Assembly (NCBI GenBank): GCA_002718395.1
Contig: PBEG01000016.1
Location: 1,003-65,002 of the forward strand
Length of the DNA stretch: 64,000 nucleotides
Reading direction: 5' to 3'
Origin: Chloroflexota bacterium
Lineage (GTDB): Bacteria > Chloroflexota > Dehalococcoidia > UBA2979
Shown in pieces: positions 19,919-60,254 of the stretch; the stretch's first letter is position 1, and each line of letters starts with the position of its first letter. The notes under the pieces were generated by a model, which saw only the letters and a program-made list of their open reading frames with translations, made no database searches and was not told the origin of the DNA. Both the position numbers and the translations under genes were made by a program.

Positions 19919-19968
19919 ATTAATACTCGTTTAATCTAATAAAATTCATTTGGCCTTGACTAAAATGA

Positions 19969-21066: not shown

Positions 21067-21105
21067 ATATTTGCTTCCTATTCATAATTTATTAGAGATA
21101 AAACA

Positions 21106-21909: not shown

Positions 21910-21945
21910 GAAAGCATTTAGAAGAAAATGATTTTTCTATTATTG

Positions 21946-26635: not shown

Positions 26636-26656
26636 TGATTTTCTTCCGCCTAAAGA

Positions 26657-27658: not shown

Positions 27659-27662
27659 TTCT

Positions 27663-28895: not shown

Positions 28896-28912
28896 CTATG
28901 TCATGATAATAA

Positions 28913-29812: not shown

Positions 29813-29840
29813 TATTATTTCTATTTTCTTAATTCTAAGC

Positions 29841-30626: not shown

Positions 30627-30645
30627 TAAACGACGAATCTTTTTT

Positions 30646-31527: not shown

Positions 31528-31544
31528 TTACTCCCTTCCTTGGG

Positions 31545-32495: not shown

Positions 32496-32520
32496 CGGTT
32501 ATTTCCGTGCATGAATAGTC

Positions 32521-33558: not shown

Positions 33559-33610
33559 ATTTATTCCTCCAGTATCTTAAACTAATGCACGAACGATAAC
33601 TGATAAGACA

Positions 33611-34753: not shown

Positions 34754-34764
34754 GCAACACCTTT

Positions 34765-36617: not shown

Positions 36618-36683
36618 GATGGCTAGCTCATTGATGCATTGAATTTAAATTATTTTTATAATCTTTAATGCTAAATATCACTC

Positions 36684-38606: not shown

Positions 38607-38718
38607 GCTAATAACTTTCTAGTCAAAAAATGGAGGATGAGATTTATTTAAATCAGACAGTCTATAGGTCCCTTTTTATATTTGGTAGATATCTAAATTA
38701 TGAATTATAGATCTTGGA

Positions 38719-40374: not shown

Positions 40375-40387
40375 TTTTGATGAGTAT

Positions 40388-42369: not shown

Positions 42370-42385
42370 TTATGGCTCTCTTCCT

Positions 42386-44238: not shown

Positions 44239-44283
44239 AAAATGATTGGCTATCTAACCAGTCTTTACTCTTATATGGAAATA

Positions 44284-45285
44284 CTAGATTTTTCCTATCT
44301 TATCTTTATTCTTTTTTATCCAATCTCTTAATTGATCTACCTTCATCCAGTCTTTGTTTGAATCGGATGTATAGACAAAATCTTTATTTACTTTTTTTCC
44401 ACCTTTAGTATTAGGGGCATCTCCACCCCATTTCCCTATTGAAGGAAGAATCTTATAATAGTCAGTAAACTCATATGTATGATCAGAATCTTCAAATCCA
44501 ATCATCTGCTCATGAACTTTCTCACCAGGTCTTATGCCAATTATCTTGTGAGGAAGTCCAGGTGCAATTGCCTCAGCAATTTCAGTTACCTTCATCGAAG
44601 GTATTTTTTTAACAAATATTTCTCCTCCTGCCATTTCGTCAAATGCTTTCCAAACTAAGTCCACTCCTTGCTCAAGAGTGATCATAAATCGAGTCATTCT
44701 TATATCAGTTATTGGTATTTCCTCTGAAGACTCTGCTAGATTCATGAAGAATGGAATGATAGAACCTCTTGATCCAAGTACATTCCCATATCTCACAACT
44801 CCAAATCTTGTATTATTCGCACCTGCATAATTGTTGCCTGCAATAAATAATTTATCTGATGCTAGCTTTGTCGCTCCATAAAGATTTACAGGATTGCTAG
44901 CCTTATCTGTCGAAAGTGCTACGACTCTTTTAACCTTCTTATCAATGGCTGCATCGATTAAATTCATTGCACCATGAATATTGGTTTTCACACATTCAAA
45001 TGGATTATATTCTGCAGTTGGAACAATCTTTGTAGCAGCCGCATGAACCACGAAATCTATATCGTCGAGTGCTCTGCTGAGTCTCTCTTTATCTCTAACG
45101 TCTCCAATGAAGAATCTAACTCTTTTATCATCTTGATATAACTTTGCCATTTCCCATTGCTTCATTTCATCTCGTGAATATATAACTAAGCGTGATGGAT
45201 TATATTTCTGGAGTGTCATTGGAACAAATGTATGTCCAAATGAACCTGTTCCACCTGTTATAAGGATATTTGAATTTTCTAACAT
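44284..45285 (-). CDS. pseB: UDP-N-acetylglucosamine 4,6-dehydratase (inverting), PseB/FlaA1 family
   Basis: ILITGGTGSFG, YSRDEMKQWEMA, GATKLASDKLF match PseB. 333 aa. Confidence 0.85.
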   Translation of the reverse strand: MLENSNILITGGTGSFGHTFVPMTLQKYNPSRLVIYSRDEMKQWEMAKLYQDDKRVRFFIGDVRDKERLSRALDDIDFVVHAAATKIVPTAEYNPFECVKTNIHGAMNLIDAAIDKKVKRVVALSTDKASNPVNLYGATKLASDKLFIAGNNYAGANNTRFGVVRYGNVLGSRGSIIPFFMNLAESSEEIPITDIRMTRFMITLEQGVDLVWKAFDEMAGGEIFVKKIPSMKVTEIAEAIAPGLPHKIIGIRPGEKVHEQMIGFEDSDHTYEFTDYYKILPSIGKWGGDAPNTKGGKKVNKDFVYTSDSNKDWMKVDQLRDWIKKNKDKIGKI

Positions 45286-45295
45286 ACTATATTCC

Positions 45296-47107
45296 TCAAT
45301 TAATAATTGTTGCCATTTCTAAAAATTCTTTATTGTTTTCTAGTAAGTATTCATAATTGCCACTATCAACTACATGTCCATTATCAATAAGATAAAGTTT
45401 GTCACATTTTTGAACGGTGCTTAGTCTATGGGCAACTATTATTATTGTCTTTGTCTTCGCAAAATTATTTATAGCATCCATAACTAGTGCTTCAGTAACA
45501 TTATCAAGGGAGCTAGTTGCCTCATCAAAAATCAAAATCTCACTCTCTCTGTATAGGGCTCTTGCTATACCAATTCTTTGTCTTTGCCCACCAGATAGCT
45601 GCATTCCATTTTGACCAACCTGAGTATCTAACCCATCTGGCAAAGTTGAAATAAACTCATCCAAATTCGCCAACATAACTGAATTTTGAATTTTAGATTT
45701 ATTTATCTCATTCATTGATTTCCCAAAGGCTATATTCTCTTTGATTGAAGCATCAGATAAAAATATAGATTGGGGGACAAAACCAATCTTTTCCTGCATC
45801 AGGCTAATATTATTTTTATGAATTACAAATTCTCCATCAATTACAATTTCACCACTATCTGGCGTTATAAGGCCTAATATAATGTCGATTATTGTTGATT
45901 TTCCTGAGCCTGATGAACCTACTATTCCAATTGTTTTATTAACTGGAATCTCAATATTGAGATTATTAAGTGCTGAATTTAATTTACCTGGATATGAAAA
46001 ACTTATATCCCTTAACTCGATTGTTTGTCCAATTTTAAATTGATCAAAATTATATTCATTTTCTTTTTCAATTAGTAACTTTTCATTTTGGCTATTCTTA
46101 AAATCTTCTCTGATACTATCAAATGCTGATAAATTACCTTGAATCGTTGAAATGCTAGCATAGACTTGTTGAAAAGCAGGTAGCAGCTTAACTCCTGCTA
46201 ATGCATAAACAGATAAAACGGGTACAACTCCACTAAGAGATCCGTCATGAGACCTGATTAGGTAAAGTATAAAAATTATAATTGAGCTAAATGCAATCAG
46301 TTCCATAAAGTATCTAGGAATCTGAGACAGCGCAACAATTGAACCTTGCCCTCTCGCAAACACTCTTCCAGATCTTTTGAATCTTTTCATATATTTCTCT
46401 TGAATACGAAGAAATAATACATCTCTAATTCCACCTAAGCCCTCAGAAAGCTCTTTGTATCTTTCCGTATGAGAATTTGAAACATCCTTACTATTTTTAG
46501 AGAGCCTGGATCTAATCATTTGATATATAGAAAGATATGCAATGCCAAAGATTAATAGTGCAATTATAGCAACATATGGATCATAAATTACCATGCTCGT
46601 TATTATGAATATTGCTGTAAATATCCTTGCATTAAGCATGATAAGAGGATTAATAATCCCAGACTTTACTCTATTGGTTTCGGCAGTTATTTGTTTAATT
46701 AGATTAGCGCTGTTTTCTTTAGAGTGAAAAAGCCAGTTTTTATTTAGATAATAATTAAATAGTGTATTTTGAATGCTCACTCCCAGTTCTTGGCCAAATA
46801 GTGATAGAACCCATATTGTATATGTAGAAATCATTGTTCCAATAGCCAAGATACTTATAACTATTCCCCCTAGGAATAATACAAACTCACTTGTATCCCC
46901 TGATCCAGACCATTCATATACGTTAGCTAAAATATTTTCACCATATAAAGTTCCAGGATCAGTAACCACCAACATAAATGGTCCTATTGATGCTACCGTT
47001 ATCAACTCAAAACCAGCAGTTATGATTGCGAGAAGTTGTATCAGAAAGAATTTCTTCCTCTGGATAGATCCTAGAAGCAAAATGAGTTCAGTAACTTTTT
47101 TTATCAT
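45296..47107 (-). CDS. ABC exporter, fused permease-ATPase (MsbA/PglK/Wzk-like candidate lipid-linked-oligosaccharide flippase)
   Basis: N-terminal 6-TM domain, Walker A GIVGSSGSGKST, signature LSGGQRQRIGIARAL, Walker B ILIFDEATS. 603 aa. Confidence 0.8.
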   Translation of the reverse strand: MIKKVTELILLLGSIQRKKFFLIQLLAIITAGFELITVASIGPFMLVVTDPGTLYGENILANVYEWSGSGDTSEFVLFLGGIVISILAIGTMISTYTIWVLSLFGQELGVSIQNTLFNYYLNKNWLFHSKENSANLIKQITAETNRVKSGIINPLIMLNARIFTAIFIITSMVIYDPYVAIIALLIFGIAYLSIYQMIRSRLSKNSKDVSNSHTERYKELSEGLGGIRDVLFLRIQEKYMKRFKRSGRVFARGQGSIVALSQIPRYFMELIAFSSIIIFILYLIRSHDGSLSGVVPVLSVYALAGVKLLPAFQQVYASISTIQGNLSAFDSIREDFKNSQNEKLLIEKENEYNFDQFKIGQTIELRDISFSYPGKLNSALNNLNIEIPVNKTIGIVGSSGSGKSTIIDIILGLITPDSGEIVIDGEFVIHKNNISLMQEKIGFVPQSIFLSDASIKENIAFGKSMNEINKSKIQNSVMLANLDEFISTLPDGLDTQVGQNGMQLSGGQRQRIGIARALYRESEILIFDEATSSLDNVTEALVMDAINNFAKTKTIIIVAHRLSTVQKCDKLYLIDNGHVVDSGNYEYLLENNKEFLEMATIIN

Positions 47108-47661
47108 CTTTTTTTATTGAAAATTTCAGCCTTGCACAATTTGATTGCTAATGTATCTCTCTCATTTAAAACGGGCTCGGACACAAAAGGCCATTTAATT
47201 GATATCTGATTATCATTCCAAATTATAACTCTCTCGTGCTCAGGAGAATAAAACTCGGTTGTTTTGTAAACTAATTCAGCACTTTCTGTGATTGTATAGA
47301 ATCCATGGGCGAATCCCTCTGGTATCCATAGCTGTTTCTTATTCTCTGAAGATAAGATTTCTCCTACCCAAGAACCAAATGTTTCTGAGTCTTCTCTTAT
47401 ATCAACTGCAACATCAAATACTGAACCATCAATAACTCGGACAAGTTTTCCTTGAGACATTGGTGGCAACTGATAATGCAAACCTCTCAAGACTCCTTTA
47501 GATGATTTGGAATGATTGTCTTGAACGAAATTTACTTCAATACCAGCAACCTCCTCAAAAACTCTTTTATTGAAACTTTCGTAAAAAAAACCTCTTTCGT
47601 CACCAAATATTTCTGGCTCAAAAAGTATAATTTCAGGAATGCTTAATAAACTGTATTTCAT
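47104..47661 (-). CDS. rmlC: dTDP-4-dehydrorhamnose 3,5-epimerase
   Basis: Cupin RmlC motifs (RGLHYQ, DIRE...GSW). 185 aa. Confidence 0.9.
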   Translation of the reverse strand: MKYSLLSIPEIILFEPEIFGDERGFFYESFNKRVFEEVAGIEVNFVQDNHSKSSKGVLRGLHYQLPPMSQGKLVRVIDGSVFDVAVDIREDSETFGSWVGEILSSENKKQLWIPEGFAHGFYTITESAELVYKTTEFYSPEHERVIIWNDNQISIKWPFVSEPVLNERDTLAIKLCKAEIFNKKR

Positions 47662-47671
47662 AATTATGATA

Positions 47672-48562
47672 TTAGTGATTTAATCCATTGTTTAGAATTT
47701 TGAGCAAATAATCACTGTATTCATTATTACTAATCTCTTCGCTCAAATGCCTTAGCTTTTTATCATCAATCCAAGAATTTACATATGCGATCTCTTCGGG
47801 ACATGCAATCTTCAAACCATCTCTATTTTCAATAGCATGCACAAACTGTTGAGCATCAAGTAAACTTTGATGAGTTCCAGTGTCGAACCATGCATCCCCC
47901 CTTTCCAAGATCTCAACCGATAATTTGTTCTCCCTTAAATAAGCAAGATTTAAATCTGTAATCTCAAGCTCCCCTCGTGAAGAGGGTTTCAATGATTTTG
48001 CAATTTCGCTGGCGTATCCATCATAAAGATATAATCCGGTAACAGCATAATTTGTCTTTGGTTTCTTTGGCTTTTCAATAATAGTTTTTGCCTTTCCTTC
48101 TTTATCAAAGGATATAACTCCATACTGTTTTGGATTTTTGACATAATAAGCAAATACGGATGCTCCATCCGTGAACGAATTTGCTCGATTAATAGCTAAT
48201 TGAATAGAATTTCCATGAAAGATATTATCTCCCAATATTAATGCTGAGGGAGAGCCAGATAAGAAATTCTCTGCAATAAGAAAGGCTTGCGCTATTCCCT
48301 CAGGCCTTTTTTGAACTTCGTATGATAGACTTATTCCCCATTGACCTCCGTCACCCAATAGGTTTTTAAAACTCTGAATGTCTCTTTCGGTTGAGATTAT
48401 CAATATTTCCCTTATTCCAGACATCATAAGCGTAGAAAGAGGGTAGTAAATCATTGGCTTGTCATACACTGGCAGAAGTTGCTTCGATATGACTTTCGTT
48501 AATGGATATAACCTAGTACCAGAACCTCCAGCTAAAATTATTCCTTTTCTATCTTTACTCAT
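47672..48562 (-). CDS. rmlA: glucose-1-phosphate thymidylyltransferase
   Basis: GIILAGGSGTRLYPLT. 296 aa. Confidence 0.9.
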   Translation of the reverse strand: MSKDRKGIILAGGSGTRLYPLTKVISKQLLPVYDKPMIYYPLSTLMMSGIREILIISTERDIQSFKNLLGDGGQWGISLSYEVQKRPEGIAQAFLIAENFLSGSPSALILGDNIFHGNSIQLAINRANSFTDGASVFAYYVKNPKQYGVISFDKEGKAKTIIEKPKKPKTNYAVTGLYLYDGYASEIAKSLKPSSRGELEITDLNLAYLRENKLSVEILERGDAWFDTGTHQSLLDAQQFVHAIENRDGLKIACPEEIAYVNSWIDDKKLRHLSEEISNNEYSDYLLKILNNGLNH

Positions 48563-49479
48563 TCTGTATTAGCAACTATTTTCTCTAATAGATCATTAGA
48601 ATAGTGCTCCCAATTTAAAATATCAGTTCCAAATGTTTCAATAATCTTTGCTGTGCTTAATTTTGAATTCTTTGGCCTTTTAGCCGGAAGAAGATACTCA
48701 TCCGATGAGATTTGATTGATTGAATTTGTTTTCATATCTTTGTAACCCAAGCTTTTAAGTCTCTCAAAGATTGAAACTGCAAAACCATGCCAACTAGTCT
48801 CACCTTTAGCCGTCATATTGTATATTCCAATAACCTCATTTAATGAAGTATCTTGGTAAAATATTTTTTTCAAGCAATTTAGAGTTAATTCAGAAATTAA
48901 ATTAGAGCTTGTAGGAGTACCTATCTGGTCGTCCACTACATTGATGAATTCTTTTGTCCTGAAAGCGTTAATCATTGTTAGTAGAAAATTTTTCCTTCTT
49001 TCTGAATATACCCAACAAGTTCTAAATATGAGGTACTTACAACCACTTCTAATTATACTCTCCTCTCCAAGTAATTTAGATTTGCCATAAACTGATAAGG
49101 GATTTACTCTACTTTCCTCTGTATAGCTTCCTCCGAAATAACCATCAAAAACATAATCAGTTGAATAATGAAGCAATAAGGCATCCTTCAGTTTTGCCAT
49201 CTCTGCAAGGTGTTGAACGAGATCTGCATTTACCCTAAAAGCCTCATTGGAATCACTTTCTGCTTTGTCAACATCTGTATAAGCTATTGCATTTATGATT
49301 ACATCTGGAGAAAACTTTTCAATGATTGAATCTAGTCTTTCAAAATCTTGAAGATTAATATCTGATCTATTAACTAGCTTTAGATTAAAAAAAGGTTTTA
49401 ATGAATTGTTTAGCTCAAAACCTACCTGACCAGAAGAGCCTAATAATAAAACTTTTATGAGTAATTCTTTTTTATCCAT
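48559..49479 (-). CDS. rmlD: dTDP-4-dehydrorhamnose reductase
   Basis: VLLLGSSGQVG, RmlD fold. 306 aa. Overlaps the rmlB end by 25 bp. Confidence 0.85.
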   Translation of the reverse strand: MDKKELLIKVLLLGSSGQVGFELNNSLKPFFNLKLVNRSDINLQDFERLDSIIEKFSPDVIINAIAYTDVDKAESDSNEAFRVNADLVQHLAEMAKLKDALLLHYSTDYVFDGYFGGSYTEESRVNPLSVYGKSKLLGEESIIRSGCKYLIFRTCWVYSERRKNFLLTMINAFRTKEFINVVDDQIGTPTSSNLISELTLNCLKKIFYQDTSLNEVIGIYNMTAKGETSWHGFAVSIFERLKSLGYKDMKTNSINQISSDEYLLPAKRPKNSKLSTAKIIETFGTDILNWEHYSNDLLEKIVANTE

Positions 49480-50507
49480 TCTCTATAGGCGCCGCCAATA
49501 ATGTTATCAGTCCATTCTTGATTCTCAAGATACCAAATCACAGTCTTTCGAATTCCAGATTCAAATGATTCATAAGGCATCCATCCAAGCTCTTTATTAA
49601 TTTTATCGCAATCTATTGCATATCTTCTGTCATGGCCTGGCCTATCTTTTGTAAAATTTATTTGAGACTTATATGATTGATTACTTGGTCGGATTTCATC
49701 AAGAATCTCACAAATATCTTCAGCAAGTTGAAGGTTGGTAATCTGATTAAGGCCACCAATATTATAAACATCGCCCGGAAGTCCATTTTTTAGAACTCTA
49801 TTTAGTGCATCACAATGGTCCGTGACGTATAGCCAATCTCTTATTTGCTGGCCATCACCATATATTGGTATTTCCTCGCCCTTTATTGCTCTCAGTATTG
49901 TGAGGGGTATAAATTTTTCAGGGAATTGGTAGGGACCATAATTATTTGAGCAATTAGTGATGATAGTTGGTAATTCATAAGTTCTGTTGTAAGCCCTAAC
50001 TAAAAAATCAGATGAAGCCTTGCTAGCAGAATACGGGCTATTTGGCTTATATCTAGTCTTTTCATTAAAAGCAGGTCCTGAAGGTGATGCTGATCCGAAC
50101 ACTTCATCTGTAGAAACATGCAAAAACCTGAATTTAGGTCTTCCATTTTCGCGTAGGTGACTAAAATACTCTCTCGTACACTCAAGAAGGTTAAATGTTC
50201 CAACGATGTTTGTTTGTATGAATCCTGAGGGCTCATGAATTGATCGATCTACATGTGATTCAGCAGCAAAATTGATAATCGCCCTTGGTTCATATGTCTT
50301 TAAGATTTTATTAACCAAATTTCTGTCACCAATATCGCCATGAAAGAATTGATAGTTTTTACTATCTTCTATAGAGGAGAGATTTTCAGGATTTCCTGCA
50401 TATGTAAGAAGGTCAAGATTAATAACCGTTTCTTGAGTATCTTCTAAAAAATTAATGATGTAGTTACTGCCTATAAATCCAGCACCACCAGTAACAAGAA
50501 TTGCCAT
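49455..50507 (-). CDS. rmlB: dTDP-glucose 4,6-dehydratase
   Basis: ILVTGGAGFIGSN, YSASKASSD. 350 aa. rmlBDAC order as in enterobacteria. Confidence 0.9.
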   Translation of the reverse strand: MAILVTGGAGFIGSNYIINFLEDTQETVINLDLLTYAGNPENLSSIEDSKNYQFFHGDIGDRNLVNKILKTYEPRAIINFAAESHVDRSIHEPSGFIQTNIVGTFNLLECTREYFSHLRENGRPKFRFLHVSTDEVFGSASPSGPAFNEKTRYKPNSPYSASKASSDFLVRAYNRTYELPTIITNCSNNYGPYQFPEKFIPLTILRAIKGEEIPIYGDGQQIRDWLYVTDHCDALNRVLKNGLPGDVYNIGGLNQITNLQLAEDICEILDEIRPSNQSYKSQINFTKDRPGHDRRYAIDCDKINKELGWMPYESFESGIRKTVIWYLENQEWTDNIIGGAYREWIKKNYS

Positions 50508-50565
50508 AATTATATTTTTTCTAACAAACCTTTATTTTATGAATTTTCCTGAGTTAGGTTGCTGA

Positions 50566-51498
50566 TTAATTATGTTCAGAGACCAATGCGTAATGTCTAA
50601 AAACTATCACTAAGATTCCTAGTATTGTTCCCAGAATTGTCCCCAAGATACAAATCATAGGCCTATTTGGATAATTTTTTGCTTCAGGGATCAGTGGTGG
50701 CTCAATCATTTGCAATACATATTCGCTGCTGATTCTTGCCATCATCTGAGTTTTTAGTTGAGCTTCAATTAGATCATTCATAGAGTTTCTAAGCTCAACA
50801 AGCCTTGTATTTTCCATTTCAGATTTGAGGAAATCTAGAGCATCTGAGGACTCTTGCAAATCTTTTTCTTGTAGCAACGAGTTAACTCCATTGATAATTA
50901 ACATTAAGAAGTCTTTAGCAAAAACTGGTGATATATGTTCTACAGATATGCTGATATATCCGTTGATTGGACTTTGATTTGCAGAAACTATGCCCATATA
51001 TCTTGGATATACTTCTTGAACAGATGGTATCTGAGATGTTGGAGGATTAACTCTTCTTATCCATTTGTCCAGTTTATAATCATATTTACTTGCATCAAAC
51101 CTAATTAAACCGGTTTCTGGATCATATGATTTAGCTGCCATAATTGATGGTAAAACTGCTCCCTCGGATTCAATAAGACTCTGCAAGAAAGCCTTTGATT
51201 GAATATGTGCCAGTATAAGATGACCCTTCTCCTCCCTACCAGATGCTGGCAGTGAAATACCAGCTAAAGAGGCGATACTACCTAACCCACCACTATTAAA
51301 TGACTGGCTTGATTCAGAAACAACATTAAGCAATGATGATGATTTATATGTATTAGTAAGCGATAGTGAATAAAGAACAGATATTACAGCAGATATCGCT
51401 GCGACAGTGATAATAAAAGATTTACCGTCCCATAAAACAGAAAAGAACTCTTTCAGATCAACTTCATAATCCCTGTTAATTTTATTTGATTCTTTCAT
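50566..51498 (-). CDS. wzz: polysaccharide co-polymerase (Wzz-type chain-length determinant, no kinase domain)
   Basis: Two TM helices (residues ~25-45 and C-terminal ICILGTILGTILGILVIVF) flanking a periplasmic coiled region. 310 aa. Confidence 0.7.
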   Translation of the reverse strand: MKESNKINRDYEVDLKEFFSVLWDGKSFIITVAAISAVISVLYSLSLTNTYKSSSLLNVVSESSQSFNSGGLGSIASLAGISLPASGREEKGHLILAHIQSKAFLQSLIESEGAVLPSIMAAKSYDPETGLIRFDASKYDYKLDKWIRRVNPPTSQIPSVQEVYPRYMGIVSANQSPINGYISISVEHISPVFAKDFLMLIINGVNSLLQEKDLQESSDALDFLKSEMENTRLVELRNSMNDLIEAQLKTQMMARISSEYVLQMIEPPLIPEAKNYPNRPMICILGTILGTILGILVIVFRHYALVSEHN

Positions 51499-51809
51499 AA
51501 CTCTTTTTTAAGTTTTTTAATCTCTTTTTTGAGTTCATTGTACTCTTCTGAGCGTCTTTTCAGGAAGTTTTTTGTTAGAAGGGCTCTCTCAGATATAGCC
51601 TTAGGAGTTAGAATATATATATAGCTTTTTTTATTATTCGAATCTCTAAAGTTAGATAATTTCAAGAACCCTTTGTCTATAAGGCCCTTAATAATGTAAT
51701 TCGTTTTGCCTAAACTAAGTCCCAACATCGCAGAAATTTCTCTTTGAGTGAGATTTGGATCTTCCTCATATATCCTTAGTACTCTGTATTCATAGTCTTG
51801 ATCATTCAT
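51495..51809 (-). CDS. small MarR-family winged-helix regulator (EPS-associated MarR type)
   Basis: 104 aa. wHTH (LTQREISAMLGLSLGKTNYIIKGLIDKGFL). Coiled C-terminus. Sits at the head of the polysaccharide operon. Confidence 0.6.
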   Translation of the reverse strand: MNDQDYEYRVLRIYEEDPNLTQREISAMLGLSLGKTNYIIKGLIDKGFLKLSNFRDSNNKKSYIYILTPKAISERALLTKNFLKRRSEEYNELKKEIKKLKKEL

Positions 51810-51822
51810 AATTGAAACAATA

Positions 51823-51830
51823 GCTACCGC
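51823..51830 (-). promoter_or_regulatory. ops-like element GCGGTAGC (core of the RfaH recruitment site GGCGGTAGnnTG) in the operon leader, 13 nt upstream of the marR-like start
   Basis: Minus-strand (non-template) reading ctaGCGGTAGCtattg. Lies between the rfaH ortholog and the first gene of the ~48 kb operon. An 8-mer may also occur by chance (~2 expected in the window). Confidence 0.4.
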
Positions 51831-51949
51831 TAGATTTTAGTAGCTAAAACCTTATTATAGTTTAAAATTTTTCTATCTCTGTTCATTTGATGAACAGCTA
51901 CATTATAATAAGATTATTTGTTCATGCAATGAACATAAGTTCAATTAGA

Positions 51950-52498
51950 TTATTTTTTATCTATTAACTTAAATGTTTCACTGCTAATGCTATCTTCAAT
52001 ATGATTAAATGGGATCTCTGTTTTTATATCCTGATTCAATATACTCATTAGTACTAAAACTCTATTTTTACTAGTTTTAGTTAGAAATCTAGCATTTAGA
52101 TTCTTAAATATACTTTTATTGATTTCTACCTTTTCCCCCTTTTTATGTTCTTTCTTGATGTCCTTCAAATGACAAATATCATTATGATCTAAATATGAAC
52201 AAATCTTTTGAATTGCCTCCCTAGGAACAAAAGAAAGTTTATTGCCAAATGTGATTAGATTAGAGACTCCTACAGTGGAGTTTATTTTGTTCCAATCTTC
52301 TTTATATAGATGAACTGAAATAAAAATATATCTAGGAAACATTGGCTTGACTTGAGAAGGATGTGAGTCATTAATGCTACTCTTTGAAATCATTGGAAGA
52401 AGTGTCATAAAACCTTGATTTGTAAGGTTCTTTTGAGCCTCAACTTCACTTCCTGGCTTAGTATATGCGAGTAACCATTTTTTATTCTTATGATCCAA
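51950..52498 (-). CDS. rfaH: NusG-family operon-specific antiterminator, RfaH ortholog
   Basis: NGN domain KKWLLAYTKPGSE..LLPMIS..PMFPRYIFISV and KOW-like KKGEKVEINKSIFKNLNARF align well with E. coli RfaH. Confidence 0.75.
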   Translation of the reverse strand: MDHKNKKWLLAYTKPGSEVEAQKNLTNQGFMTLLPMISKSSINDSHPSQVKPMFPRYIFISVHLYKEDWNKINSTVGVSNLITFGNKLSFVPREAIQKICSYLDHNDICHLKDIKKEHKKGEKVEINKSIFKNLNARFLTKTSKNRVLVLMSILNQDIKTEIPFNHIEDSISSETFKLIDKK

Positions 52499-52553: not shown

Positions 52554-55415
52554 TTAAAAACTATTTACTGCTGCTGCTGCAAGTGCCATTTGATATATTA
52601 TTTGTGTGACTTCTGTAGTAGCTTGAATACTTGAGAACGGTTGTACCTGTAATGGTATAACAATTGTATCTCCAGGAGCTAGCTGTGACCCCCGTCCTCT
52701 AAAAAACCCTGATGACAACTGTGATGGTGAAACTACACTTCCGTCTGATTTAATCAGATAGAGATTGGCTTCATCAGCAAATGATGTTAATCCTCCACTC
52801 AAGCTAATATAGTCATTAATTCCTAGATCTTTTTTGTATAAGTGTGAATTTGACACAAAAACTTCACCGATGACTGAAATACTTTGAATCTTTTTAGGGA
52901 TATGTAGCTTATCTCCATCTTCAAGAATTATATCATCTATACCTCCTGATAATATTCCATCAAGATCAATAACTAGTCGGCCAAGAACTTCGGTATCATT
53001 GGTGTCTGATGATATTAGAGATGTAAGTTGACTTATAGAATTACTATCAAGAGAGTCTTTGCCTAGACCGCCAGCCTGACTCGATAGCAGTATTTTTCTT
53101 TTCAACTCATCTTGAGCACTTTTTAATCTGTCTTTTTCTGCTTCTTGAATAGCCTCTCTTTGATAGTAAGCTGCATCGATTGATCCAAATTCAGTTACTC
53201 CTCCTGCTCTTCTTATGAGCTCGCCCAATGTTTGATTCTCTGTTATTGGATAAGTACCTGGAAAGAAGACCTCTCCGCTAATTTCAACTGACTGAAAATC
53301 TGTGGCCAACTGTTTTAGTATTACAGTATCCATCTCATTTAACTTAATCTCACTTGCCTCTTTTATAGAAGCAAAGTTATTTTTACTGATAAATTTCTTA
53401 TCTTGTTGATTTATAGTATTAAGCTCAATTTCAGCCTGATAAGTTCCATTCTTGGGTCCTCCAGCCGCTTTGATAGCATCTGACAAGATCATTTGGTTTG
53501 TGAGTGGATATTGACCAGGGAAATGGACATTTCCATAAACTGAAACGAGACTGAGTTTTTCTTTAGTATCATTCCTCTCTATCAAATCTATAATTGGATC
53601 AAGTAACTCTTGCCTACATAAAGATGTAATTGTTTTTGATAACGCCTCGCTTTGATAGTTCTCATTCTGAAGCTCTATCCTTTCTCTCTCCAAAGTTTGC
53701 TGAAGAATTAAGAAATCTTCTGGCGTTGAAAGTTTTTCTAGATCTTCTATAGGAATTGATTTCTTTGGTCTGAATCCAGATTCTTCAATTATCTTAATAG
53801 CCAAATCTTCTGGTAAAGTGCAGTAATCATAAACACTATACTCATAGTATCTCATAATGTCTGATTCTGACATTTCCAAATCTGGTTGGGTTTGTATTTC
53901 ACCAATGCTCATTGTATTTTTCTTATCAAGAGCTAGCTTTTCCTCCATAAGTGATTTTCTAAGATAGGTCAAAGATGTCCATTCGTCCTCAAGAACCATC
54001 ATATTGGAATCCTTATCAAGAACATATCGATCTCGTATCAGCCTAGTTGTGATTTGATCAGGAGTAATAATGGAAGGAAATAGGATAATTTCATCATGAT
54101 CCTTTAGAGTCAAATTTTTACTAGATTCAGGATTGCTAAATAGATCCTCTAAATCTATTTGATGAAACTCAAATAGTTGTGATTTTTTATTTTTTCTTTT
54201 TACTAGGACATAATTCAAATCTGTCATCTCCAGTAAGTCATCTGAATCATTAAAGAGATCCAATAATTTCATTCCACTTTGCCAAGGATAGAATCCAGGT
54301 TCTTGAGCATGTCCAGAAATTAGGACGGCATTTTTAAGATTATTGGGAACAGAAAATACTGAAACAACATCGCCATTCATCATCTCAAAATTTTGACTAT
54401 CTTTTTTATTCATATCGATTGAAAGAAGGTCAAATGAATTATTGATAGTATTTATCCTAGTAATATTTGTTGAAGAGAGGTTTGCTTTTGGTTTTAGATT
54501 TCCAGAATATTTTAGAAGGTGCTCTAAGTTCTCATCATTTTTGAGTTCATATATTCCAGGCTTATTTACCTCTCCTCTTATCGCAACTGTTTTTCCAATT
54601 GGCTCGATGAAAACTACATCGCCTTGCATTAATCTAGAATCATTACTAGTATCTCCATTTAGTAGAAGGTCGTAAAAATCAAATGTTGTAACGACATTAC
54701 CGTTTCTTTTAAGCTTGATATTTCTTAGCGAACCTGCCTTGCCTATACCCCCGCTCTTCATTATTGCATTTGTAAGTGAAGATAAAGCACTTATGCTGAA
54801 CATGCCTGGATTACTGGCTGATCCCAAAACAAAAATATCAATTGCTCTCAGAGTACCCATTGTAACGCTTACTTGTGCACCGATTAGTTGATTAGAAATT
54901 ATATTCTTCAGTAGCTCTTTCAAATCTCCAAAAGTAATGCCAGCAACAAACACTGGTCCAATTTCTGGAAGAAAGATATCACCATCTCTAGTGACTTTAA
55001 GTTCATACTTACTGTTCTTGCTCCCAAAAAGAATTATCTTAATTGTGTCATTTGGTCCAATCATATAATCGGGTGGAACAGGAACATCCTTTAAAGGAGC
55101 AAATGTAGACAGATTGTTTTGAAAGTAACTATATCCGAAATAATCTAGAGGCTCATTTGGTAATCTTACATTAGGGGGGTTAACAAAATTCTTGCCTCCA
55201 GTATATCCATAATCACTATCTGAAAAGTCAATTGTCTCTTGCCTTTTTTCATCGATTTCATCCTCATCATCTGACTCAAAATCGGAAACTTGATCAGCGT
55301 CACTGTTACCTAATCCGCTAGCTAGGTTAGTTAGTATTGATGCCTCCATTTGAGCATAAGAATTCTGTCCTATAATCAAAACTAATAGCAAAATAATTTT
55401 GTAGTTAAGTTTCAT
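52554..55415 (-). CDS. wza: outer-membrane polysaccharide export protein (Wza/OPX family, giant multi-SLBB form, 953 aa)
   Basis: Signal peptide. Poly_export-like region (PPDYMIGPNDTIKIILFG) followed by several soluble-ligand-binding beta-grasp-like repeats. Comparable in size to Vibrio WbfF/OtnA. Confidence 0.75.
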   Translation of the reverse strand: MKLNYKIILLLVLIIGQNSYAQMEASILTNLASGLGNSDADQVSDFESDDEDEIDEKRQETIDFSDSDYGYTGGKNFVNPPNVRLPNEPLDYFGYSYFQNNLSTFAPLKDVPVPPDYMIGPNDTIKIILFGSKNSKYELKVTRDGDIFLPEIGPVFVAGITFGDLKELLKNIISNQLIGAQVSVTMGTLRAIDIFVLGSASNPGMFSISALSSLTNAIMKSGGIGKAGSLRNIKLKRNGNVVTTFDFYDLLLNGDTSNDSRLMQGDVVFIEPIGKTVAIRGEVNKPGIYELKNDENLEHLLKYSGNLKPKANLSSTNITRINTINNSFDLLSIDMNKKDSQNFEMMNGDVVSVFSVPNNLKNAVLISGHAQEPGFYPWQSGMKLLDLFNDSDDLLEMTDLNYVLVKRKNKKSQLFEFHQIDLEDLFSNPESSKNLTLKDHDEIILFPSIITPDQITTRLIRDRYVLDKDSNMMVLEDEWTSLTYLRKSLMEEKLALDKKNTMSIGEIQTQPDLEMSESDIMRYYEYSVYDYCTLPEDLAIKIIEESGFRPKKSIPIEDLEKLSTPEDFLILQQTLERERIELQNENYQSEALSKTITSLCRQELLDPIIDLIERNDTKEKLSLVSVYGNVHFPGQYPLTNQMILSDAIKAAGGPKNGTYQAEIELNTINQQDKKFISKNNFASIKEASEIKLNEMDTVILKQLATDFQSVEISGEVFFPGTYPITENQTLGELIRRAGGVTEFGSIDAAYYQREAIQEAEKDRLKSAQDELKRKILLSSQAGGLGKDSLDSNSISQLTSLISSDTNDTEVLGRLVIDLDGILSGGIDDIILEDGDKLHIPKKIQSISVIGEVFVSNSHLYKKDLGINDYISLSGGLTSFADEANLYLIKSDGSVVSPSQLSSGFFRGRGSQLAPGDTIVIPLQVQPFSSIQATTEVTQIIYQMALAAAAVNSF

Positions 55416-55553: not shown

Positions 55554-57077
55554 TCAAGAGAAGTATTTATTTTTATATTCTTTAAACGTAATTATATCTT
55601 TTTCGAGCATGCATTGTTTCTTTATTGAGCTTTCTGTTTCAATATTTAGTTTTTTCCAATTGGAATTATTCTTTGAATTTAACTCAAGAAATTTTAGTTT
55701 ATTCTTATGAGAAATAGACTCTCCAAGACGAATAAATGATCTTTTTTCTATGAGTGATTCTAAGATCATAGCTGAGGGAGTTAAAGAAGGGTCATTGATT
55801 CTTGCTCTCATAAGCTCAATATTTTCAGAGTGTCCAATTTCTTTGTGGTTATCCAAAAAATTAGCTATTGGAAGCATTTCATCAAGAATTTCATTTGCCC
55901 AATCTGTTAAAGAAATATTCTTATCATTTCTTACTAATTTCAAATTTGGCTTCCTGCCCATCTTTGCAACTTTGATATCATTTTTAAATATCTGTTTTTC
56001 TTCTATTTTATTGATGGGATCACTTTCCTTTACGAACGCATAGAGCATGAAGATCTCTAGAAAAATTATAGTCTCTTCACTAATCCCAATTGGAGAATAT
56101 GGATCCAGATCCAGTGACCTTAATTCAATGAAATCAACACCGCCATTCAATAACTTCTTTGCAAAACGAACATCTGATTTATCTATACTCTTAGCTCTAG
56201 CAGCGGCATAGTACTCATCTTCTATTTGTAATTGGTTAGCATTAATTTGAGAGAGCGTATCCCCTGTTTCATCAAAAATCTTTGAAAATGAATCGCTTTT
56301 TTGATTAGTTGCTTTTAACAGATCAGTGGTATATGAATTCAATGAATTTGTTGAAATATTAATTTTCGCCCTCGATAAATTTTGATACCCATACTCACTC
56401 ATCCTGATTGAAGTTCCGTATGGGGAAAATAAAGTGTTTTTATCTAACTTGACAAAATCATCATTTAAACCTGATAAAAAATCTTTAGTTATTGAAGGAG
56501 AACAACCAAATAAATAGAGAATTAGCCAATTCATTCTTAGAACATTTCTAAGAATAGAGAAATAATTCTCAGATCTTAATTCAAGAGATTCTCTTTCATG
56601 ATTTTTAAATATAGAGCTTGTCCAAATTTTTCTTGGTAATGAATAATTAAAGTGGACACCGGAAATAGTTTGCATTAATCGGCCATATCTATGAGATAAA
56701 CCTTTTCGATACACATGCTTAAAGAGTCCTTTGCTTGAAGTTCCAAATTTTGCAATAGGTATGCCGCCCTTACCTATATAAAATGGCATACTAAAAGGCC
56801 AGAGCATTTCGTCATCAACACTAGAGTAAAAAAAATGATGAATATCTAAAAGAAAATTAAGTGCTTTTCTTTTGTCAGAAAAAGGTGGTGTAATGAATTC
56901 TAGTTGAGCCTCAGAGAAATCAGTTGTTATATAACTATTACATAATGAGGAGCCTAATGATTTTGGATGGGGTTCTTGTGAAATCTTTGAATTCAAATAT
57001 CTTAAGCTTTCTTTTTCAATTCCTACTTCTGAGCACTTTATATATGGCTCTATCTCAGATAATAGTTCCTGTTTCAT
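55554..57077 (-). CDS. gshA: glutamate--cysteine ligase (E. coli type)
   Basis: LGSSLCNSYITTDFSEAQLEFITP, YGRLMQTISGVHFNYSLP, VDFIELRSLDLDPYSPIGI colinear with E. coli GshA. 507 aa. Confidence 0.9.
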   Translation of the reverse strand: MKQELLSEIEPYIKCSEVGIEKESLRYLNSKISQEPHPKSLGSSLCNSYITTDFSEAQLEFITPPFSDKRKALNFLLDIHHFFYSSVDDEMLWPFSMPFYIGKGGIPIAKFGTSSKGLFKHVYRKGLSHRYGRLMQTISGVHFNYSLPRKIWTSSIFKNHERESLELRSENYFSILRNVLRMNWLILYLFGCSPSITKDFLSGLNDDFVKLDKNTLFSPYGTSIRMSEYGYQNLSRAKINISTNSLNSYTTDLLKATNQKSDSFSKIFDETGDTLSQINANQLQIEDEYYAAARAKSIDKSDVRFAKKLLNGGVDFIELRSLDLDPYSPIGISEETIIFLEIFMLYAFVKESDPINKIEEKQIFKNDIKVAKMGRKPNLKLVRNDKNISLTDWANEILDEMLPIANFLDNHKEIGHSENIELMRARINDPSLTPSAMILESLIEKRSFIRLGESISHKNKLKFLELNSKNNSNWKKLNIETESSIKKQCMLEKDIITFKEYKNKYFS

Positions 57078-57113: not shown

Positions 57114-59309
57114 TTAAATACTCTCTCTTGGTGATGTACTAAATCCATTGAAAATCTTTTTGATGGACCATGATTTTTGGCTAATAATATCTAATTCATC
57201 TGAAGCATCGGTTACTAGGTTATATAAGCCTCCCCCTGACTCAACTTTTGTGCCAGCATCTTTTGTGAGAGGGCTCCAAGAATATCCTGTTTTTTGTCTA
57301 GTAGAAGAACTTATAAAAAATAAGTCCATTGGCATCTCAAAATAGATCCATTTATTAAAACTACCTTCTCCGACACACTGAGAATCACAATCAGTTAATG
57401 CTACTATTGCTCCAACCCTTGCGCCTGTATCAAATCTTCTGGATATATCTATATGTGCGCCAACATCTTTACCTAGAAATTTACCCATACTTATTTTTAG
57501 GCGTGTATCGTAAAAAGGAATGTCACGGTAATAAGACAGAAATCCCGTTACAGTCTCATAATCCTGAAAACCAAACCTCTGATCAAAGTCTCTTTGCTTT
57601 ACCCAGAAAGCCTCTAAACCTAATGCCCATCTTCTATTATCTGGTAAATATAAAACCTCTCCTCCATATCCTCCATACATCCATTCGAGATAACCAGCAG
57701 AGAGCTTAGCTTTTATGTTTGTGCTTAATCCAAATACATAATCAATAGCCATTCTTCTTAATCCTGACTCACCCTCAGTTAAATATAATCTTCTGTTTTG
57801 CCTGACATGATAAAGCTCTCCATCCGGAACATGATATGTATAGTCTCTATAGTTATTTGCGATATCAATTCCAATATCAGTCGTAAATGTCAATCCTTTC
57901 TTAATTGCATATTCAGTGTGAATTAGGGCCTCAAGCTGCCAGAAGTAAAACTTTTCTTGGTGTTGAAGTGTACCTAGAGCATGAGGCTTTATTTCCCAGG
58001 AAAAATTTGGGTATAAAAAATCATTTTTAATAACAGTTACGTCATTCTCGAGTGGTCTATAGATATCATAAGAAAACATTTCTTCTTCTAGAGGCTGATC
58101 TCTAACAATTCTTTTAATATCTCCTTTTCTTATGGTTGACCTTATTGTTTCAATACCCTGATCAATATTTATAATTGTTATATGTTCAATATTTTTTGGA
58201 GCATTACTTGCCAAAACTCTACTAGCCAAGTCAAGAGCTTGGGATGTCTTGCTGAATCTTCCCTGGCTTATCTCGGCTGCTAACTCATCCCCATTGAAAA
58301 AAATATTATGTGTTACAAAACCAACATTTGCCATCTCTCGAAATATCCTGTTAGTAAGAAATTTCTTCCAGTTATCATTTGTGGTGCTGTAGTTATCAAT
58401 ATTCGTATTTCTTAGTATTTCTGGCCCTAAAACTATGCTTGGGCGTCCTTTAAAATTAAGATTCGAATGTACAGATGCATTCAAGTAAATGGTGTTACCT
58501 CTAACATATCCTAGTGATAAATCTAATTTATCTCTATCACCTAGATTCATTCTGTAATTGAATGAATAATTAAATCTAGAGTCTAGTTGAAATTTATCCC
58601 CCGTTTCATCAAACCTTTTTTCAAGACCGATTATTCTTGAATAATTTGAAGAATCATATTCTAGCTTAAATGTGAAATTATCAATTGGGCTCAGATACTC
58701 TAAACCACCAAAAAATGCTGCGTCGCCTGAGAATAATCTGCCAAAGCTAACAAGACCGCCTAGAGTTCCTTTCTCGCCGCCTCTAATTTTTTTTGATTCA
58801 ATGAAATGCCCCAAAGGATTATTGAATGTATTTTTACCTGCAAGTCTCCCCCAACCCAAACCAAAGCTCAAATCAAAATTATTGATTTTCTTAGACCCTA
58901 CGATATATTCGCTTGCATATGCTCCTGTACCACCAAAATCAGTTATCCCCATTGCTATCTGGGGGAAATTATCTCTTTCTTTAAGTAACAAAAAACGAAA
59001 ATCAATACCTTTATCTTTCCATGTTTGCTGACTACCTTTCATGTAAGGCCTAGAGGTACCCTCGGTATATTTGAGCGTTGCTTCCATCCAGGGGAATATC
59101 TGGACTGATGAGTAGAGACGGTTATAAACTTCTTCTGAAGAGATTCCAAAAACAAACTCTCCATCATCTAAGAATCTGGCTGAGGGAGTTTCAATTAAAC
59201 CTATGCCACCATATGTCGATTGGAAATAAGGTGAACTATAATCATCTGCATACACCGTAATTGAAACGATGCAGCTAAAAAATATTAATAATGAAATTTT
59301 CTTAAGCAT
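57114..59309 (-). CDS. YjbH/GfcD-family outer-membrane beta-barrel protein (exopolysaccharide/group-4-capsule assembly)
   Basis: Signal peptide. YGGIGLIETPSARF..YSSVQIFPWMEATLKYTE..GITDFGGTGAYASEYIVGSK..FDLSFGLGWGRL and C-terminal PMDLFF..SWSPLTKDAG align with E. coli YjbH. Confidence 0.8.
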   Translation of the reverse strand: MLKKISLLIFFSCIVSITVYADDYSSPYFQSTYGGIGLIETPSARFLDDGEFVFGISSEEVYNRLYSSVQIFPWMEATLKYTEGTSRPYMKGSQQTWKDKGIDFRFLLLKERDNFPQIAMGITDFGGTGAYASEYIVGSKKINNFDLSFGLGWGRLAGKNTFNNPLGHFIESKKIRGGEKGTLGGLVSFGRLFSGDAAFFGGLEYLSPIDNFTFKLEYDSSNYSRIIGLEKRFDETGDKFQLDSRFNYSFNYRMNLGDRDKLDLSLGYVRGNTIYLNASVHSNLNFKGRPSIVLGPEILRNTNIDNYSTTNDNWKKFLTNRIFREMANVGFVTHNIFFNGDELAAEISQGRFSKTSQALDLASRVLASNAPKNIEHITIINIDQGIETIRSTIRKGDIKRIVRDQPLEEEMFSYDIYRPLENDVTVIKNDFLYPNFSWEIKPHALGTLQHQEKFYFWQLEALIHTEYAIKKGLTFTTDIGIDIANNYRDYTYHVPDGELYHVRQNRRLYLTEGESGLRRMAIDYVFGLSTNIKAKLSAGYLEWMYGGYGGEVLYLPDNRRWALGLEAFWVKQRDFDQRFGFQDYETVTGFLSYYRDIPFYDTRLKISMGKFLGKDVGAHIDISRRFDTGARVGAIVALTDCDSQCVGEGSFNKWIYFEMPMDLFFISSSTRQKTGYSWSPLTKDAGTKVESGGGLYNLVTDASDELDIISQKSWSIKKIFNGFSTSPRESI

Positions 59310-60045: not shown

Positions 60046-60254
60046 CTGTGATGATCCTTTAAATTAGTTTGTATTTTAATCTACCCACCCCAGGTTTTCA
60101 TATACCTAAGGTGTAAGTTTTAATCAATTAGCATTGTTTGTAAACAACATTTTCACTTTTTTGCATAAAGTTACATGTGTTAGTTGAAGAGGATTATAGT
60201 TGAAACTAAAAGTATTAAATACCCTTTTATTGAGTTATTTTTTTAGCCATAAAA

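What the first reader, a model, noticed from the sequence alone, without database searches (positions are those of the whole stretch)
51809..52498. RfaH ortholog placed just upstream of an ops-like GCGGTAGC leader element heading a ~48 kb operon
The 182-aa protein aligns with E. coli RfaH in both NGN and KOW regions. In the 140-bp gap that follows, on the transcribed strand's non-template side, sits GCGGTAGC, the central 8 nt of the 12-nt ops consensus GGCGGTAGnnTG. It lies 13 nt upstream of the first gene of the long marR-wzz-rml...ugd operon. RfaH-dependent antitermination would explain how a ~45-gene operon with dozens of internal gaps is fully transcribed. The unusual part is that rfaH is itself encoded inside the locus it would control.
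Basis: partly seen in the sequence, partly recalled or inferred. Interest (0 to 1): 0.55.

Follow-up and report, generated by a model that had tools for sequence, protein, structure and literature searches.

The report
RfaH-like antiterminator beside its loading site
An uncultured marine bacterium encodes an RfaH-type transcription elongation factor right next to the short DNA signal that probably loads it onto RNA polymerase at the head of a 48-kb sugar-coat gene cluster; this arrangement is real and conserved, but it is common and already described outside E. coli.

Summary
A 182-aa NusG paralog that scores best as RfaH lies at 52498..51950 (-). A 140-nt gap follows, with GCGGTAGC at 51830..51823 (-), 13 nt before the ATG of a MarR_EPS regulator. 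That gene opens a 46-gene, 47.9-kb co-directional polysaccharide run ending in ugd.

The 8-mer alone is weak evidence; comparison is strong. In more than 30 distinct orthologous marine leaders (proteins 34-75% identical), GCGGTAGCYAT is invariant while the flanks diverge. Across 160 loci fetched by protein homology only, GCGGTAG is about 10-fold enriched on the sense strand just downstream of rfaH-like genes. Higher-GC relatives and Shewanella carry canonical GGCGGTAGCGTG or Rfam JUMPstart there.

The leader also holds a conserved -10 box, two perfect TGTTCAT-N3-ATGAACA palindromes (probable MarR_EPS operators) and a hairpin abutting the element, as in JUMPstart.

The "unusual" claim fails. 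rfaH encoded beside its target is frequent and published (Wang et al. 2020).

This clade differs in three ways. The pause-inducing TG at ops positions 11-12 is replaced by AT, contact residues H20/R23/R73 are replaced, and the element sits 1-14 nt from the start codon.

Verdict: a new member of a known kind. Function is inferred, not shown.

The parts
51950..52498 (-). rfaH-like gene (182 aa, TTG start): NusG paralog with an NGN domain and a divergent CTD
   Evidence: The top Foldseek hits of the AF2 model are autoinhibited E. coli RfaH structures (8pfg, 5ond, 2oug), aligned over about 157 columns. I93, F130 and R138 equivalents are kept; E48 is K.
51919..51935 (.). Palindrome 1, TGTTCATTGCATGAACA; probable MarR_EPS operator overlapping the -35 region
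   Evidence: One of only two perfect matches in the window. Palindrome arms invariant in two 8-row alignments covering 11 distinct loci. The same core lies at the marR start in the 55%-GC relative L126.
51902..51907 (-). -10 box TATAAT between the palindromes (putative promoter P1; -35-like TTGCAT 16 nt upstream)
   Evidence: TAnnAT columns are invariant across the two 8-row leader alignments. Positions. Not flagged by the consensus scanner because the -35 matches only 3 of 6. The transcription start is inferred, not mapped.
51880..51896 (.). Palindrome 2, TGTTCATCAAATGAACA (reads TGTTCATTTGATGAACA on the + strand); probable second operator around +1
51832..51852 (-). Hairpin AGGTTTTAG-CTA-CTAAAATCT ending 1 nt before the ops-like element (JUMPstart-like stem-loop)
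   Evidence: 22 of 30 distinct leaders have an uninterrupted stem of at least 5 bp ending 0-3 nt before the element, against 6.2 (maximum 14) in shuffles. Stem sequences differ between lineages. The in-register covariation test on 11 close leaders is weak. Rfam JUMPstart has the same layout.
51820..51831 (-). ops-like element AGCGGTAGCTAT (core GCGGTAGC at 51830..51823)
   Evidence: GCGGTAGCYAT is present in 33 distinct marine leaders and invariant in the alignments. It keeps C3-G8, the bases needed for RfaH recruitment in E. coli (Zuber 2018).
51495..51809 (-). MarR family EPS-associated regulator (104 aa), first gene after the element
   Evidence: TIGR04176 136.5 bits, above the 88-bit cutoff. 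The same gene follows the element in all orthologous loci.
3910..51498 (-). Body of the putative RfaH-dependent transcription unit: wzz, rmlBDAC, an ABC transporter, nonulosonic-acid-type genes, gmd/fcl-like genes, glycosyltransferases, neuB ... ugd
   Evidence: No excess of terminator-like sites.
52554..55415 (-). Wza-like SLBB polysaccharide export protein (953 aa) upstream of rfaH; same locus, but upstream of the element
   Evidence: Conserved synteny. No ops-like element in its own upstream gap.

Best explanation
The 182-aa protein is an RfaH-type specialised NusG paralog, and the conserved GCGGTAGCYAT in the adjacent leader is its ops-type loading site.

Proposed course of events:
1. Transcription starts at a sigma-70-type promoter in the rfaH-marR gap. 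The -10 box TATAAT lies at 51907..51902. Two TGTTCAT-N3-ATGAACA palindromes bracket it and most likely bind the MarR_EPS protein, giving autoregulation.
2. About 65 nt into the leader, RNA polymerase exposes the element on the non-template strand.
3. The C3-G8 core can form the small hairpin that presents G5 and T6. The NGN domain binds it and stays on the polymerase.
4. The bound factor excludes NusG and so blunts Rho-dependent termination (rho is encoded in the window). This allows the 46-gene, 47.9-kb polysaccharide run to be transcribed to its end.

Status of the steps:
- Shown: the homology, the position, strand and deep conservation of the element, its replacement by canonical ops/JUMPstart in relatives, and the conservation of the -10 box, palindromes and hairpin.
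- Inferred: the transcription start, binding of the protein to the element, MarR binding to the palindromes, antitermination, and single-operon status.
For: - Protein identity: RfaH is the best family and structure match.
- Conservation: the element is invariant in two 8-row alignments of orthologous leaders covering 11 distinct loci, from proteins only 41-75% identical, while flanks average 65-72% column identity. It is present in 33 distinct leaders.
- Unbiased retrieval by protein only, genomes: 29 sense-strand downstream GCGGTAG hits against 2, 4 and 9 in control compartments, over 80 species genomes.
- Unbiased retrieval by protein only, metagenomes: 50 hits against 4, 3 and 3 in controls, over 80 metagenome loci.
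- Relatives: they carry full GGCGGTAGCGTG, and Shewanella/Motilimonas carry Rfam JUMPstart hits directly after rfaH.
- Recruitment bases: all six bases whose mutation reduces or abolishes RfaH recruitment in E. coli (C3, G4, G5, T6, A7, G8) are present (Zuber 2018, PMC5995543).
- Contact residues: the substitutions N20 and non-Arg73 also occur in relatives that sit next to canonical ops. R73 is reported as a late acquisition (PMC7593976).
- Autoinhibition: interface residues I93 and F130 are conserved.
- Target: a long co-directional gene run with tiny gaps and no excess of terminator-like sites. rho is present.
Against: - There are no transcript data, so the start site is unmapped.
- The NCBIfam RfaH score is below the equivalog cutoff (117.6 against 144.5).
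- Three of the four side chains that contact ops in E. coli differ (H20 to N, R23 to N, R73 to V).
- The TG at ops positions 11-12, shared by all validated E. coli targets and needed for the pause, is AT in the whole clade.
- The CTD fold is not resolved by AF2 (pLDDT below 50 to 66).
- The element lies 1-14 nt from the marR start codon, an atypical place for ops. The median is about 74 nt in relatives with canonical ops.
- Rfam's JUMPstart model does not match the window even at E<=10.
Confidence: 0.7

Rival explanations
1. The conserved 11-mer is a cis-element for something other than RfaH loading. It could be part of the marR translation-initiation region or an RNA-level signal acting with the upstream hairpin. 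The NusG paralog would then be recruited in another way or act elsewhere.
For: The element sits 1-14 nt from the start codon in 27 of 29 leaders, where translation signals lie. A hairpin abuts it. Three ops-contact residues are replaced. The pause-inducing TG is missing.
Against: The conserved bases are exactly ops positions 2-9, not a Shine-Dalgarno sequence. Spacings of 1 nt exclude a Shine-Dalgarno role. Shine-Dalgarno usage is weak genome-wide anyway. The same position relative to rfaH holds canonical ops/JUMPstart in relatives. Co-occurrence with the rfaH-like gene is near-universal.
Confidence: 0.15
2. The gene run is not one RfaH-dependent operon. Internal promoters drive distal blocks, and the factor matters only for the proximal genes (marR, wzz, rml).
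For: Operon status is only inferred from co-direction. Six gaps exceed 50 nt (maximum 112 nt, at 38607..38718). AT-rich DNA is full of promoter-like hexamers. The cluster is mosaic, with several sugar pathways.
Against: The median gap is 13 nt with many overlaps. Promoter-like sites are not enriched over shuffles, and there is no excess of terminator-like sites in intergenic positions. Great length is the shared feature of NusG-paralog targets (PMC7593976).
Confidence: 0.3
3. The match to ops is a chance 8-mer in an AT-rich gap.
For: The 7-mer occurs at chance frequency in the window (2 copies). The full 12-mer has 3 mismatches, like 113 other sites. 8 of 100 shuffles contain the 8-mer somewhere.
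Against: The element is invariant across more than 30 diverged leaders, and it is enriched about 10-fold in that compartment and strand.
Confidence: 0.02
4. The protein is the organism's housekeeping NusG rather than a specialised paralog.
For: It has the NusG N-terminal domain. No other nusG gene is visible in the 64-kb window.
Against: It scores 117.6 bits on RfaH against 62.4 on NusG. It is not next to secE/rplK. It has K at the RfaH K10 position, which is F in NusG according to PMC7593976. No KOW hit and no beta-barrel CTD were predicted. It is always embedded in polysaccharide loci.
Confidence: 0.02

Closest known systems
E. coli RfaH with the ops element / JUMPstart leader (waa, rfb, hly, tra operons)
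   Same: NusG paralog with RfaH as best sequence and structure match. The ops core C3-G8 (and G2, C9) is identical, lies on the non-template strand of a leader, and is preceded by a hairpin as in Rfam JUMPstart. The target is a very long polysaccharide gene run. The I93/F130 autoinhibition residues are kept.
   Different: [quoted passage not shown] Positions 10-12 are YAT, not GTG, so the pause-inducing TG is absent. H20, R23 and R73 are N, N and V. The element is 13 nt (1-14 nt in the clade) from the first start codon. Only 26-29% identity; below the NCBIfam equivalog cutoff; no Rfam JUMPstart match.
RfaH clusters CL2-CL8 of Wang et al. 2020 (mBio, PMC7593976), especially CL4 (HTH-regulator neighbour) and CL7 (Shewanella, within EPS operons)
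   Same: rfaH is encoded next to or within envelope-polysaccharide loci, and an HTH regulator is a neighbour. My loci from Shewanella, Motilimonas, Acidiferrobacterales and Thioalkalispiraceae show rfaH followed by ops/JUMPstart, and several also carry MarR_EPS.
   Different: Cluster membership of this protein could not be checked because the supplementary tables are not held. In the higher-GC relatives examined (L014, L019, L126) the marR gene comes before ops, in either order relative to rfaH; here the order is rfaH, ops, marR. That paper reports gene neighbourhoods, not the leader elements.
Bacteroides UpxY, Myxococcus TaA, Bacillus LoaP (cis-encoded NusG paralogs)
   Same: A specialised NusG paralog encoded at its target operon and acting on that operon's leader.
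   Different: Different subfamilies (UpxY 64 bits, LoaP 30 bits, against RfaH 118). UpxY is the first gene of the operon it controls, and its recognition signal is not ops.
MarR family EPS-associated regulators (NCBIfam TIGR04176)
   Same: The 104-aa protein passes the equivalog cutoff. It lies at the head of an EPS locus next to wza/wzz-type genes.
   Different: No operator has been described for this family to my knowledge, and I found no paper. The TGTTCAT-N3-ATGAACA assignment is my inference.

Membership tests
RfaH (specialised NusG paralog) | NGN domain homologous to NusG, with RfaH as the best-scoring subfamily | tested here: met
   PF02357 63.5 bits. TIGR01955 117.6 bits against UpxY 64.2, NusG 62.4 and LoaP 29.8. 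PDB phmmer: RfaH 4e-14 against NusG 1e-6.
RfaH (specialised NusG paralog) | Score above NCBI's curated equivalog cutoff | tested here: not met
   117.6 against 144.5 (TIGR01955) and 97.3 against 124 (NF006534). It is therefore RfaH-like, not a certified equivalog.
RfaH (specialised NusG paralog) | ops-contacting side chains K10, H20, R23, R73 (Zuber 2018) | tested here: inconclusive
   K10 and Q24 are kept; H20 is N, R23 is N, R73 is V. Relatives adjacent to canonical ops also have N20 and L/F/I73, so the substitutions do not exclude ops reading.
RfaH (specialised NusG paralog) | Autoinhibited alpha-helical CTD that refolds to a beta-barrel | tested here: inconclusive
   I93, F130 and R138 equivalents are conserved; E48 is K. 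In two AF2 runs the CTD has pLDDT below 50 to 66, one helix at about 141-155 and no beta-barrel. The best Foldseek hits are autoinhibited RfaH structures over about 157 columns. Low confidence.
RfaH (specialised NusG paralog) | ops element on the non-template strand in the leader of the target operon | tested here: met
   The core positions 2-9 are exact and invariant across the clade. The strand and the position downstream of a conserved -10 box fit. The transcription start is not mapped.
RfaH (specialised NusG paralog) | Pause-inducing T11-G12 of ops | tested here: not met
   Positions 11-12 are A and T here and in all 33 marine leaders. TG is shared by all validated E. coli targets.
RfaH (specialised NusG paralog) | Coexists with a housekeeping NusG; suppresses polarity in vivo | not testable with these tools
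   Only a 64-kb window is available, with no expression data.
JUMPstart RNA motif (Rfam RF01707) | Match to the covariance model at gathering score | tested here: not met
   No hit in the window at gathering score, or at E<=10 in 51500-52200. Positive controls in Shewanella and Motilimonas score 44.6-46.7 bits.
JUMPstart RNA motif (Rfam RF01707) | Architecture: stem-loop followed within a few nt by GCGGTAGC | tested here: met
   In the window a 9-bp stem ends 1 nt before the element. 22 of 30 leaders have such a stem against 6.2 in shuffles. The formal in-register covariation test is weak.
MarR_EPS (TIGR04176) | Score above the equivalog cutoff, in an EPS locus context | tested here: met
   136.5 bits against a cutoff of 88, next to wzz, wza and rml genes.

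The most novel reading that the evidence does not exclude
This marine clade uses a re-tuned RfaH/ops pair. The recruitment core is retained, but the class-II TG pause is replaced. An RNA hairpin ending about 11-12 nt upstream of the likely pause position may do that job instead. The element is fused to the start codon of the first gene. RfaH loading would then deliver the ribosome directly to a Shine-Dalgarno-less start, and it would make synthesis of the locus repressor (MarR_EPS) itself RfaH-dependent, giving a built-in feedback loop.
Probability: 0.2. Interest if true: 0.6.

Novelty: new member of a known kind. Interest (0 to 1): 0.33.

Why it matters
The finding extends the RfaH/ops system, which has been studied in detail only in enterobacteria, to abundant uncultured low-GC marine bacteria. 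It also shows that the ops core (GCGGTAG) is conserved from 26% to 66% GC genomes. The clade offers natural variants of both partners: N20/N23/V73 in the protein, and CYAT instead of CGTG in the DNA. These variants could test which contacts and which pause features are really required for recruitment. The recurring trio of rfaH, a MarR_EPS gene with a TGTTCAT-N3-ATGAACA operator, and ops suggests a portable control module for very long surface-polysaccharide operons. This is incremental rather than surprising.

Tried and rejected
- Rfam on the window (gathering score, and E<=10 around the gap) gave no JUMPstart, only chance-level hits such as Polynucleobacter-1 and snoRNAs.
- The sigma-70 scanner did not flag the inter-palindrome promoter because its -35 matches only 3 of 6. 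A second TATAAT at 51858..51853 (P2) is not conserved outside the closest relatives, so I dropped it.
- RNAalifold on a MAFFT alignment of leaders missed the hairpin because the arms were out of register. An in-register subset of 11 close leaders gave only one compensatory pair, with 56 of 500 shuffles as good. The hairpin therefore rests on the stem-presence test.
- A TAGCTA...TAGCTA pairing that would sequester the element exists only in the window and its closest relatives, so I rejected it as a conserved structure.
- The idea that ops replaces a missing Shine-Dalgarno sequence is weakened. Shine-Dalgarno pairing is weak for most genes here, including rho and gshA.
- Taxonomy is unresolved. 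The GTDB-representative scan found no close genome (best 36% identity). The Rho search and cluster look-ups returned no organism names.
- The supplements of Wang et al. 2020 are not held in usable form, so cluster (CL) membership could not be checked.
- Literature searches for MarR_EPS/TIGR04176 or for RfaH with MarR in EPS clusters found nothing specific.
- No ops-like element or palindrome lies upstream of wza.

Full report
**What is in the sequence**

All relevant genes lie on the minus strand. Reading 5' to 3' on that strand, the order is as follows.
- gshA at 57077..55554.
- A 953-aa Wza-like SLBB export protein at 55415..52554.
- After a 55-nt gap, a 182-aa ORF at 52498..51950.
- A 140-nt gap.
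- A 104-aa MarR family EPS-associated regulator at 51809..51495 (TIGR04176, 136.5 bits, cutoff 88).
- wzz, rmlB, rmlD, rmlA and rmlC.
- An ABC transporter, nonulosonic-acid-type genes, gmd/fcl-like genes, glycosyltransferases, methyltransferases and neuB.
- Finally ugd at 5088..3910, which converges on a plus-strand inositol monophosphatase gene.

From 51809 to 3910 there are 46 co-directional ORFs over 47,900 nt. The median gap is 13 nt and the largest is 112 nt. Terminator-like sites are not enriched in the part scanned, 3000-42999 and 51300-56000.

**The protein**

- It has the NusG N-terminal domain.
- It scores 117.6 bits on RfaH TIGR01955, against 64 for UpxY, 62 for NusG and 30 for LoaP. 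The RfaH score is below NCBI's equivalog cutoff of 144.5.
- Against solved structures, E. coli RfaH is the best sequence match, covering residues 6-162 at E=4e-14.
- Two AlphaFold runs give a confident NGN domain and an unresolved CTD. The CTD has a single helix at about 141-155 and no beta-barrel.
- The model's best Foldseek matches are the autoinhibited RfaH structures, aligned over about 157 columns. This is a hint, not proof, of an RfaH-like closed state.
- Of the residues reported as needed for autoinhibition (E48, I93, F130; PMC7593976), I93 and F130 are conserved and E48 is K.
- Of the side chains that contact ops (K10, H20, R23, R73; Zuber 2018), only K10 is kept. The others are N, N and V.

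**The element**

GCGGTAGC lies at 51830..51823 on the coding, non-template strand, 13 nt before the marR ATG. The 12-mer AGCGGTAGCTAT matches ops at positions 2-9 only.

Counts within the window do not make the case. The 8-mer occurs once against 0.09 expected. The 7-mer occurs twice, which is about chance. The 12-mer with 3 mismatches is unremarkable.

**Comparative evidence**

- Orthologous marine metagenome loci were reached through the protein only, at 34-75% identity. They keep the synteny wza, rfaH-like gene, gap, marR, wzz.
- Two 8-row alignments of the gap, covering 11 distinct loci, show GCGGTAGC(Y)AT invariant while flanking columns diverge.
- In 80 metagenome loci fetched by protein homology, GCGGTAG occurs 50 times on the sense strand within 1.2 kb downstream of the gene. 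The three control compartments have 4, 3 and 3 hits.
- In 80 species genomes the figures are 29 against 2, 4 and 9, and 27 of 80 loci are positive.
- The higher-GC relatives (Acidiferrobacterales, Thioalkalispiraceae and other gammaproteobacterial MAGs, Shewanella, Motilimonas) carry the full canonical GGCGGTAGCGTG there.
- In Shewanella and Motilimonas this is a formal Rfam JUMPstart match, immediately after rfaH and ahead of a Wza-like gene.
- Those relatives next to canonical ops also have N at position 20 and a hydrophobic residue at position 73. The substitutions in the window protein therefore do not argue against ops reading. Wang et al. note that R73 arose late in RfaH evolution.

**Anatomy of the leader**

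The features that follow are conserved across the two 8-row leader alignments.
- Palindrome TGTTCATTGCATGAACA at 51935..51919.
- A -10 box TATAAT at 51907..51902, with the TAnnAT columns invariant.
- Palindrome TGTTCATCAAATGAACA at 51896..51880.

The same palindrome core sits at the start of the marR-like gene in a 55%-GC relative. It recurs between rfaH and marR in many high-GC loci. This points to the MarR_EPS protein as its ligand and to autoregulation. That assignment is an inference.

A hairpin at 51852..51832 ends 1 nt before the element. 22 of 30 distinct leaders have such a stem, against 6.2 in shuffles, and the stem sequences differ between lineages. A strict in-register covariation count on 11 close leaders is weak. 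The layout of a stem-loop followed by GCGGTAGC is that of JUMPstart, although the Rfam model does not match the window.

**How this clade differs from the E. coli paradigm**

- Positions 10-12 are YAT, not GTG, in all 33 distinct leaders. The TG at positions 11-12 is the pause-inducing dinucleotide shared by all validated E. coli targets. G12C abolishes the pause but not recruitment, whereas mutations in C3-G8 reduce or abolish recruitment. The clade keeps the recruitment core and has changed the pause part.
- The element lies 1-14 nt before the marR start codon in 27 of 29 leaders. In relatives with canonical ops the median distance is about 74 nt.
- I considered that the element stands in for a missing Shine-Dalgarno sequence. 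Shine-Dalgarno pairing is weak for most genes in this window, so this is not compelling.

**What is not new**

Wang et al. 2020 (PMC7593976) report the following.
- Only the E. coli-type cluster CL1 acts in trans from an unrelated location.
- Clusters CL2-CL8 neighbour envelope-biogenesis genes.
- CL4 is associated with an HTH regulator.
- Shewanella CL7 genes lie within exopolysaccharide operons.
- Other NusG paralogs (UpxY, TaA) are encoded in their targets.

Note also that rfaH here lies upstream of the element, so it is next to the controlled transcript rather than inside it.

**Verdict**

It remains untested functionally. This is a new member of a known kind with some clade-specific twists. 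Taxonomy is unresolved. NCBI labels the MAG 'Chloroflexi bacterium'. However, the trxA-rho pair, gshA, Wza/Wzz and the exclusively gammaproteobacterial relatives of the RfaH-like protein point to a proteobacterium.

Noticed in passing
window 1195-2979 (-): trxA (2979..2584) followed directly by rho (2577..1195; TIGR00767, 697 bits) flanks the polysaccharide locus. Rho is therefore present in this organism, which matters for an anti-Rho role of RfaH. The trxA-rho pairing is, from my own knowledge, the gammaproteobacterial arrangement.
   Followed up: partly
window 7071-7077 (-), inside the ORF 8199..6172: A second GCGGTAG (AGCGGTAGGACA) lies on the operon's sense strand, inside a 675-aa GH57-like gene. 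Its frequency fits chance, and its conservation was not checked.
   Followed up: no
whole window; protein P0006 (MBI52008.1): The NCBI record for the near-identical protein is labelled 'MAG: Chloroflexi bacterium'. The gene content (Wza/Wzz, gshA, trxA-rho, RfaH) and all relatives point to Gammaproteobacteria, so this is probably a mis-binned or mislabelled contig. GTDB species representatives held no close homologue (best 36% identity).
   Followed up: partly
L107 about 1330-1345; L114 about 590-720: In L107 the element is cut after TGCGGTG and unrelated sequence follows, suggesting a rearrangement or assembly breakpoint exactly at the element. In L114 the palindromes remain, but the element, marR and wzz are missing, and an epimerase gene follows directly.
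   Followed up: no
L129, L135, L142 (about 130-180 nt after the rfaH-like gene): A subclade at about 35% identity has no GCGGTAG. It has a conserved (A/T)(A/G)G(G/A)TAGTAGAATAA and the repeat ATGTAACTTTTTGTAACTCATG, followed by a signal-peptide (Wza-like?) gene. This may be a further diverged loading site.
   Followed up: no
L126 2040-2085; L019 3615-4295; L014 2546-3552: In higher-GC relatives the same three parts occur in another order. In L019 and L126 it is rfaH, MarR_EPS-like gene, GGCGGTAGCGTG, then manC or another sugar gene. In L014 the MarR_EPS gene precedes rfaH, and ops lies 62 nt after rfaH. In L126 the palindrome CTTTAGTGTTCATGGTATGAACACTAAAG overlaps the marR start codon.
   Followed up: partly
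window, all gene starts: Shine-Dalgarno complementarity is weak for most genes. The median duplex energy is -2.65 kcal/mol, and rho, wza and rfaH have essentially none.
   Followed up: partly
window 57114-60857: A 731-aa ORF (59309..57114) and two roughly 200-aa ORFs have no NCBIfam match. ORFs 59461..60045 (-) and 59495..60067 (+) overlap almost completely, so the real gene there is undecided.
   Followed up: no
window 9098-13617 and 41281-45285 (-): The cluster combines a NeuB-type synthase, a PseB-like dehydratase, a DegT aminotransferase, a CMP-transferase, two ATP-grasp ligases, a TPP-dependent enzyme, and a GH57-like and an NHL-repeat protein. This suggests an elaborate, possibly amino-acid-decorated, nonulosonic-acid glycan.
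   Followed up: no
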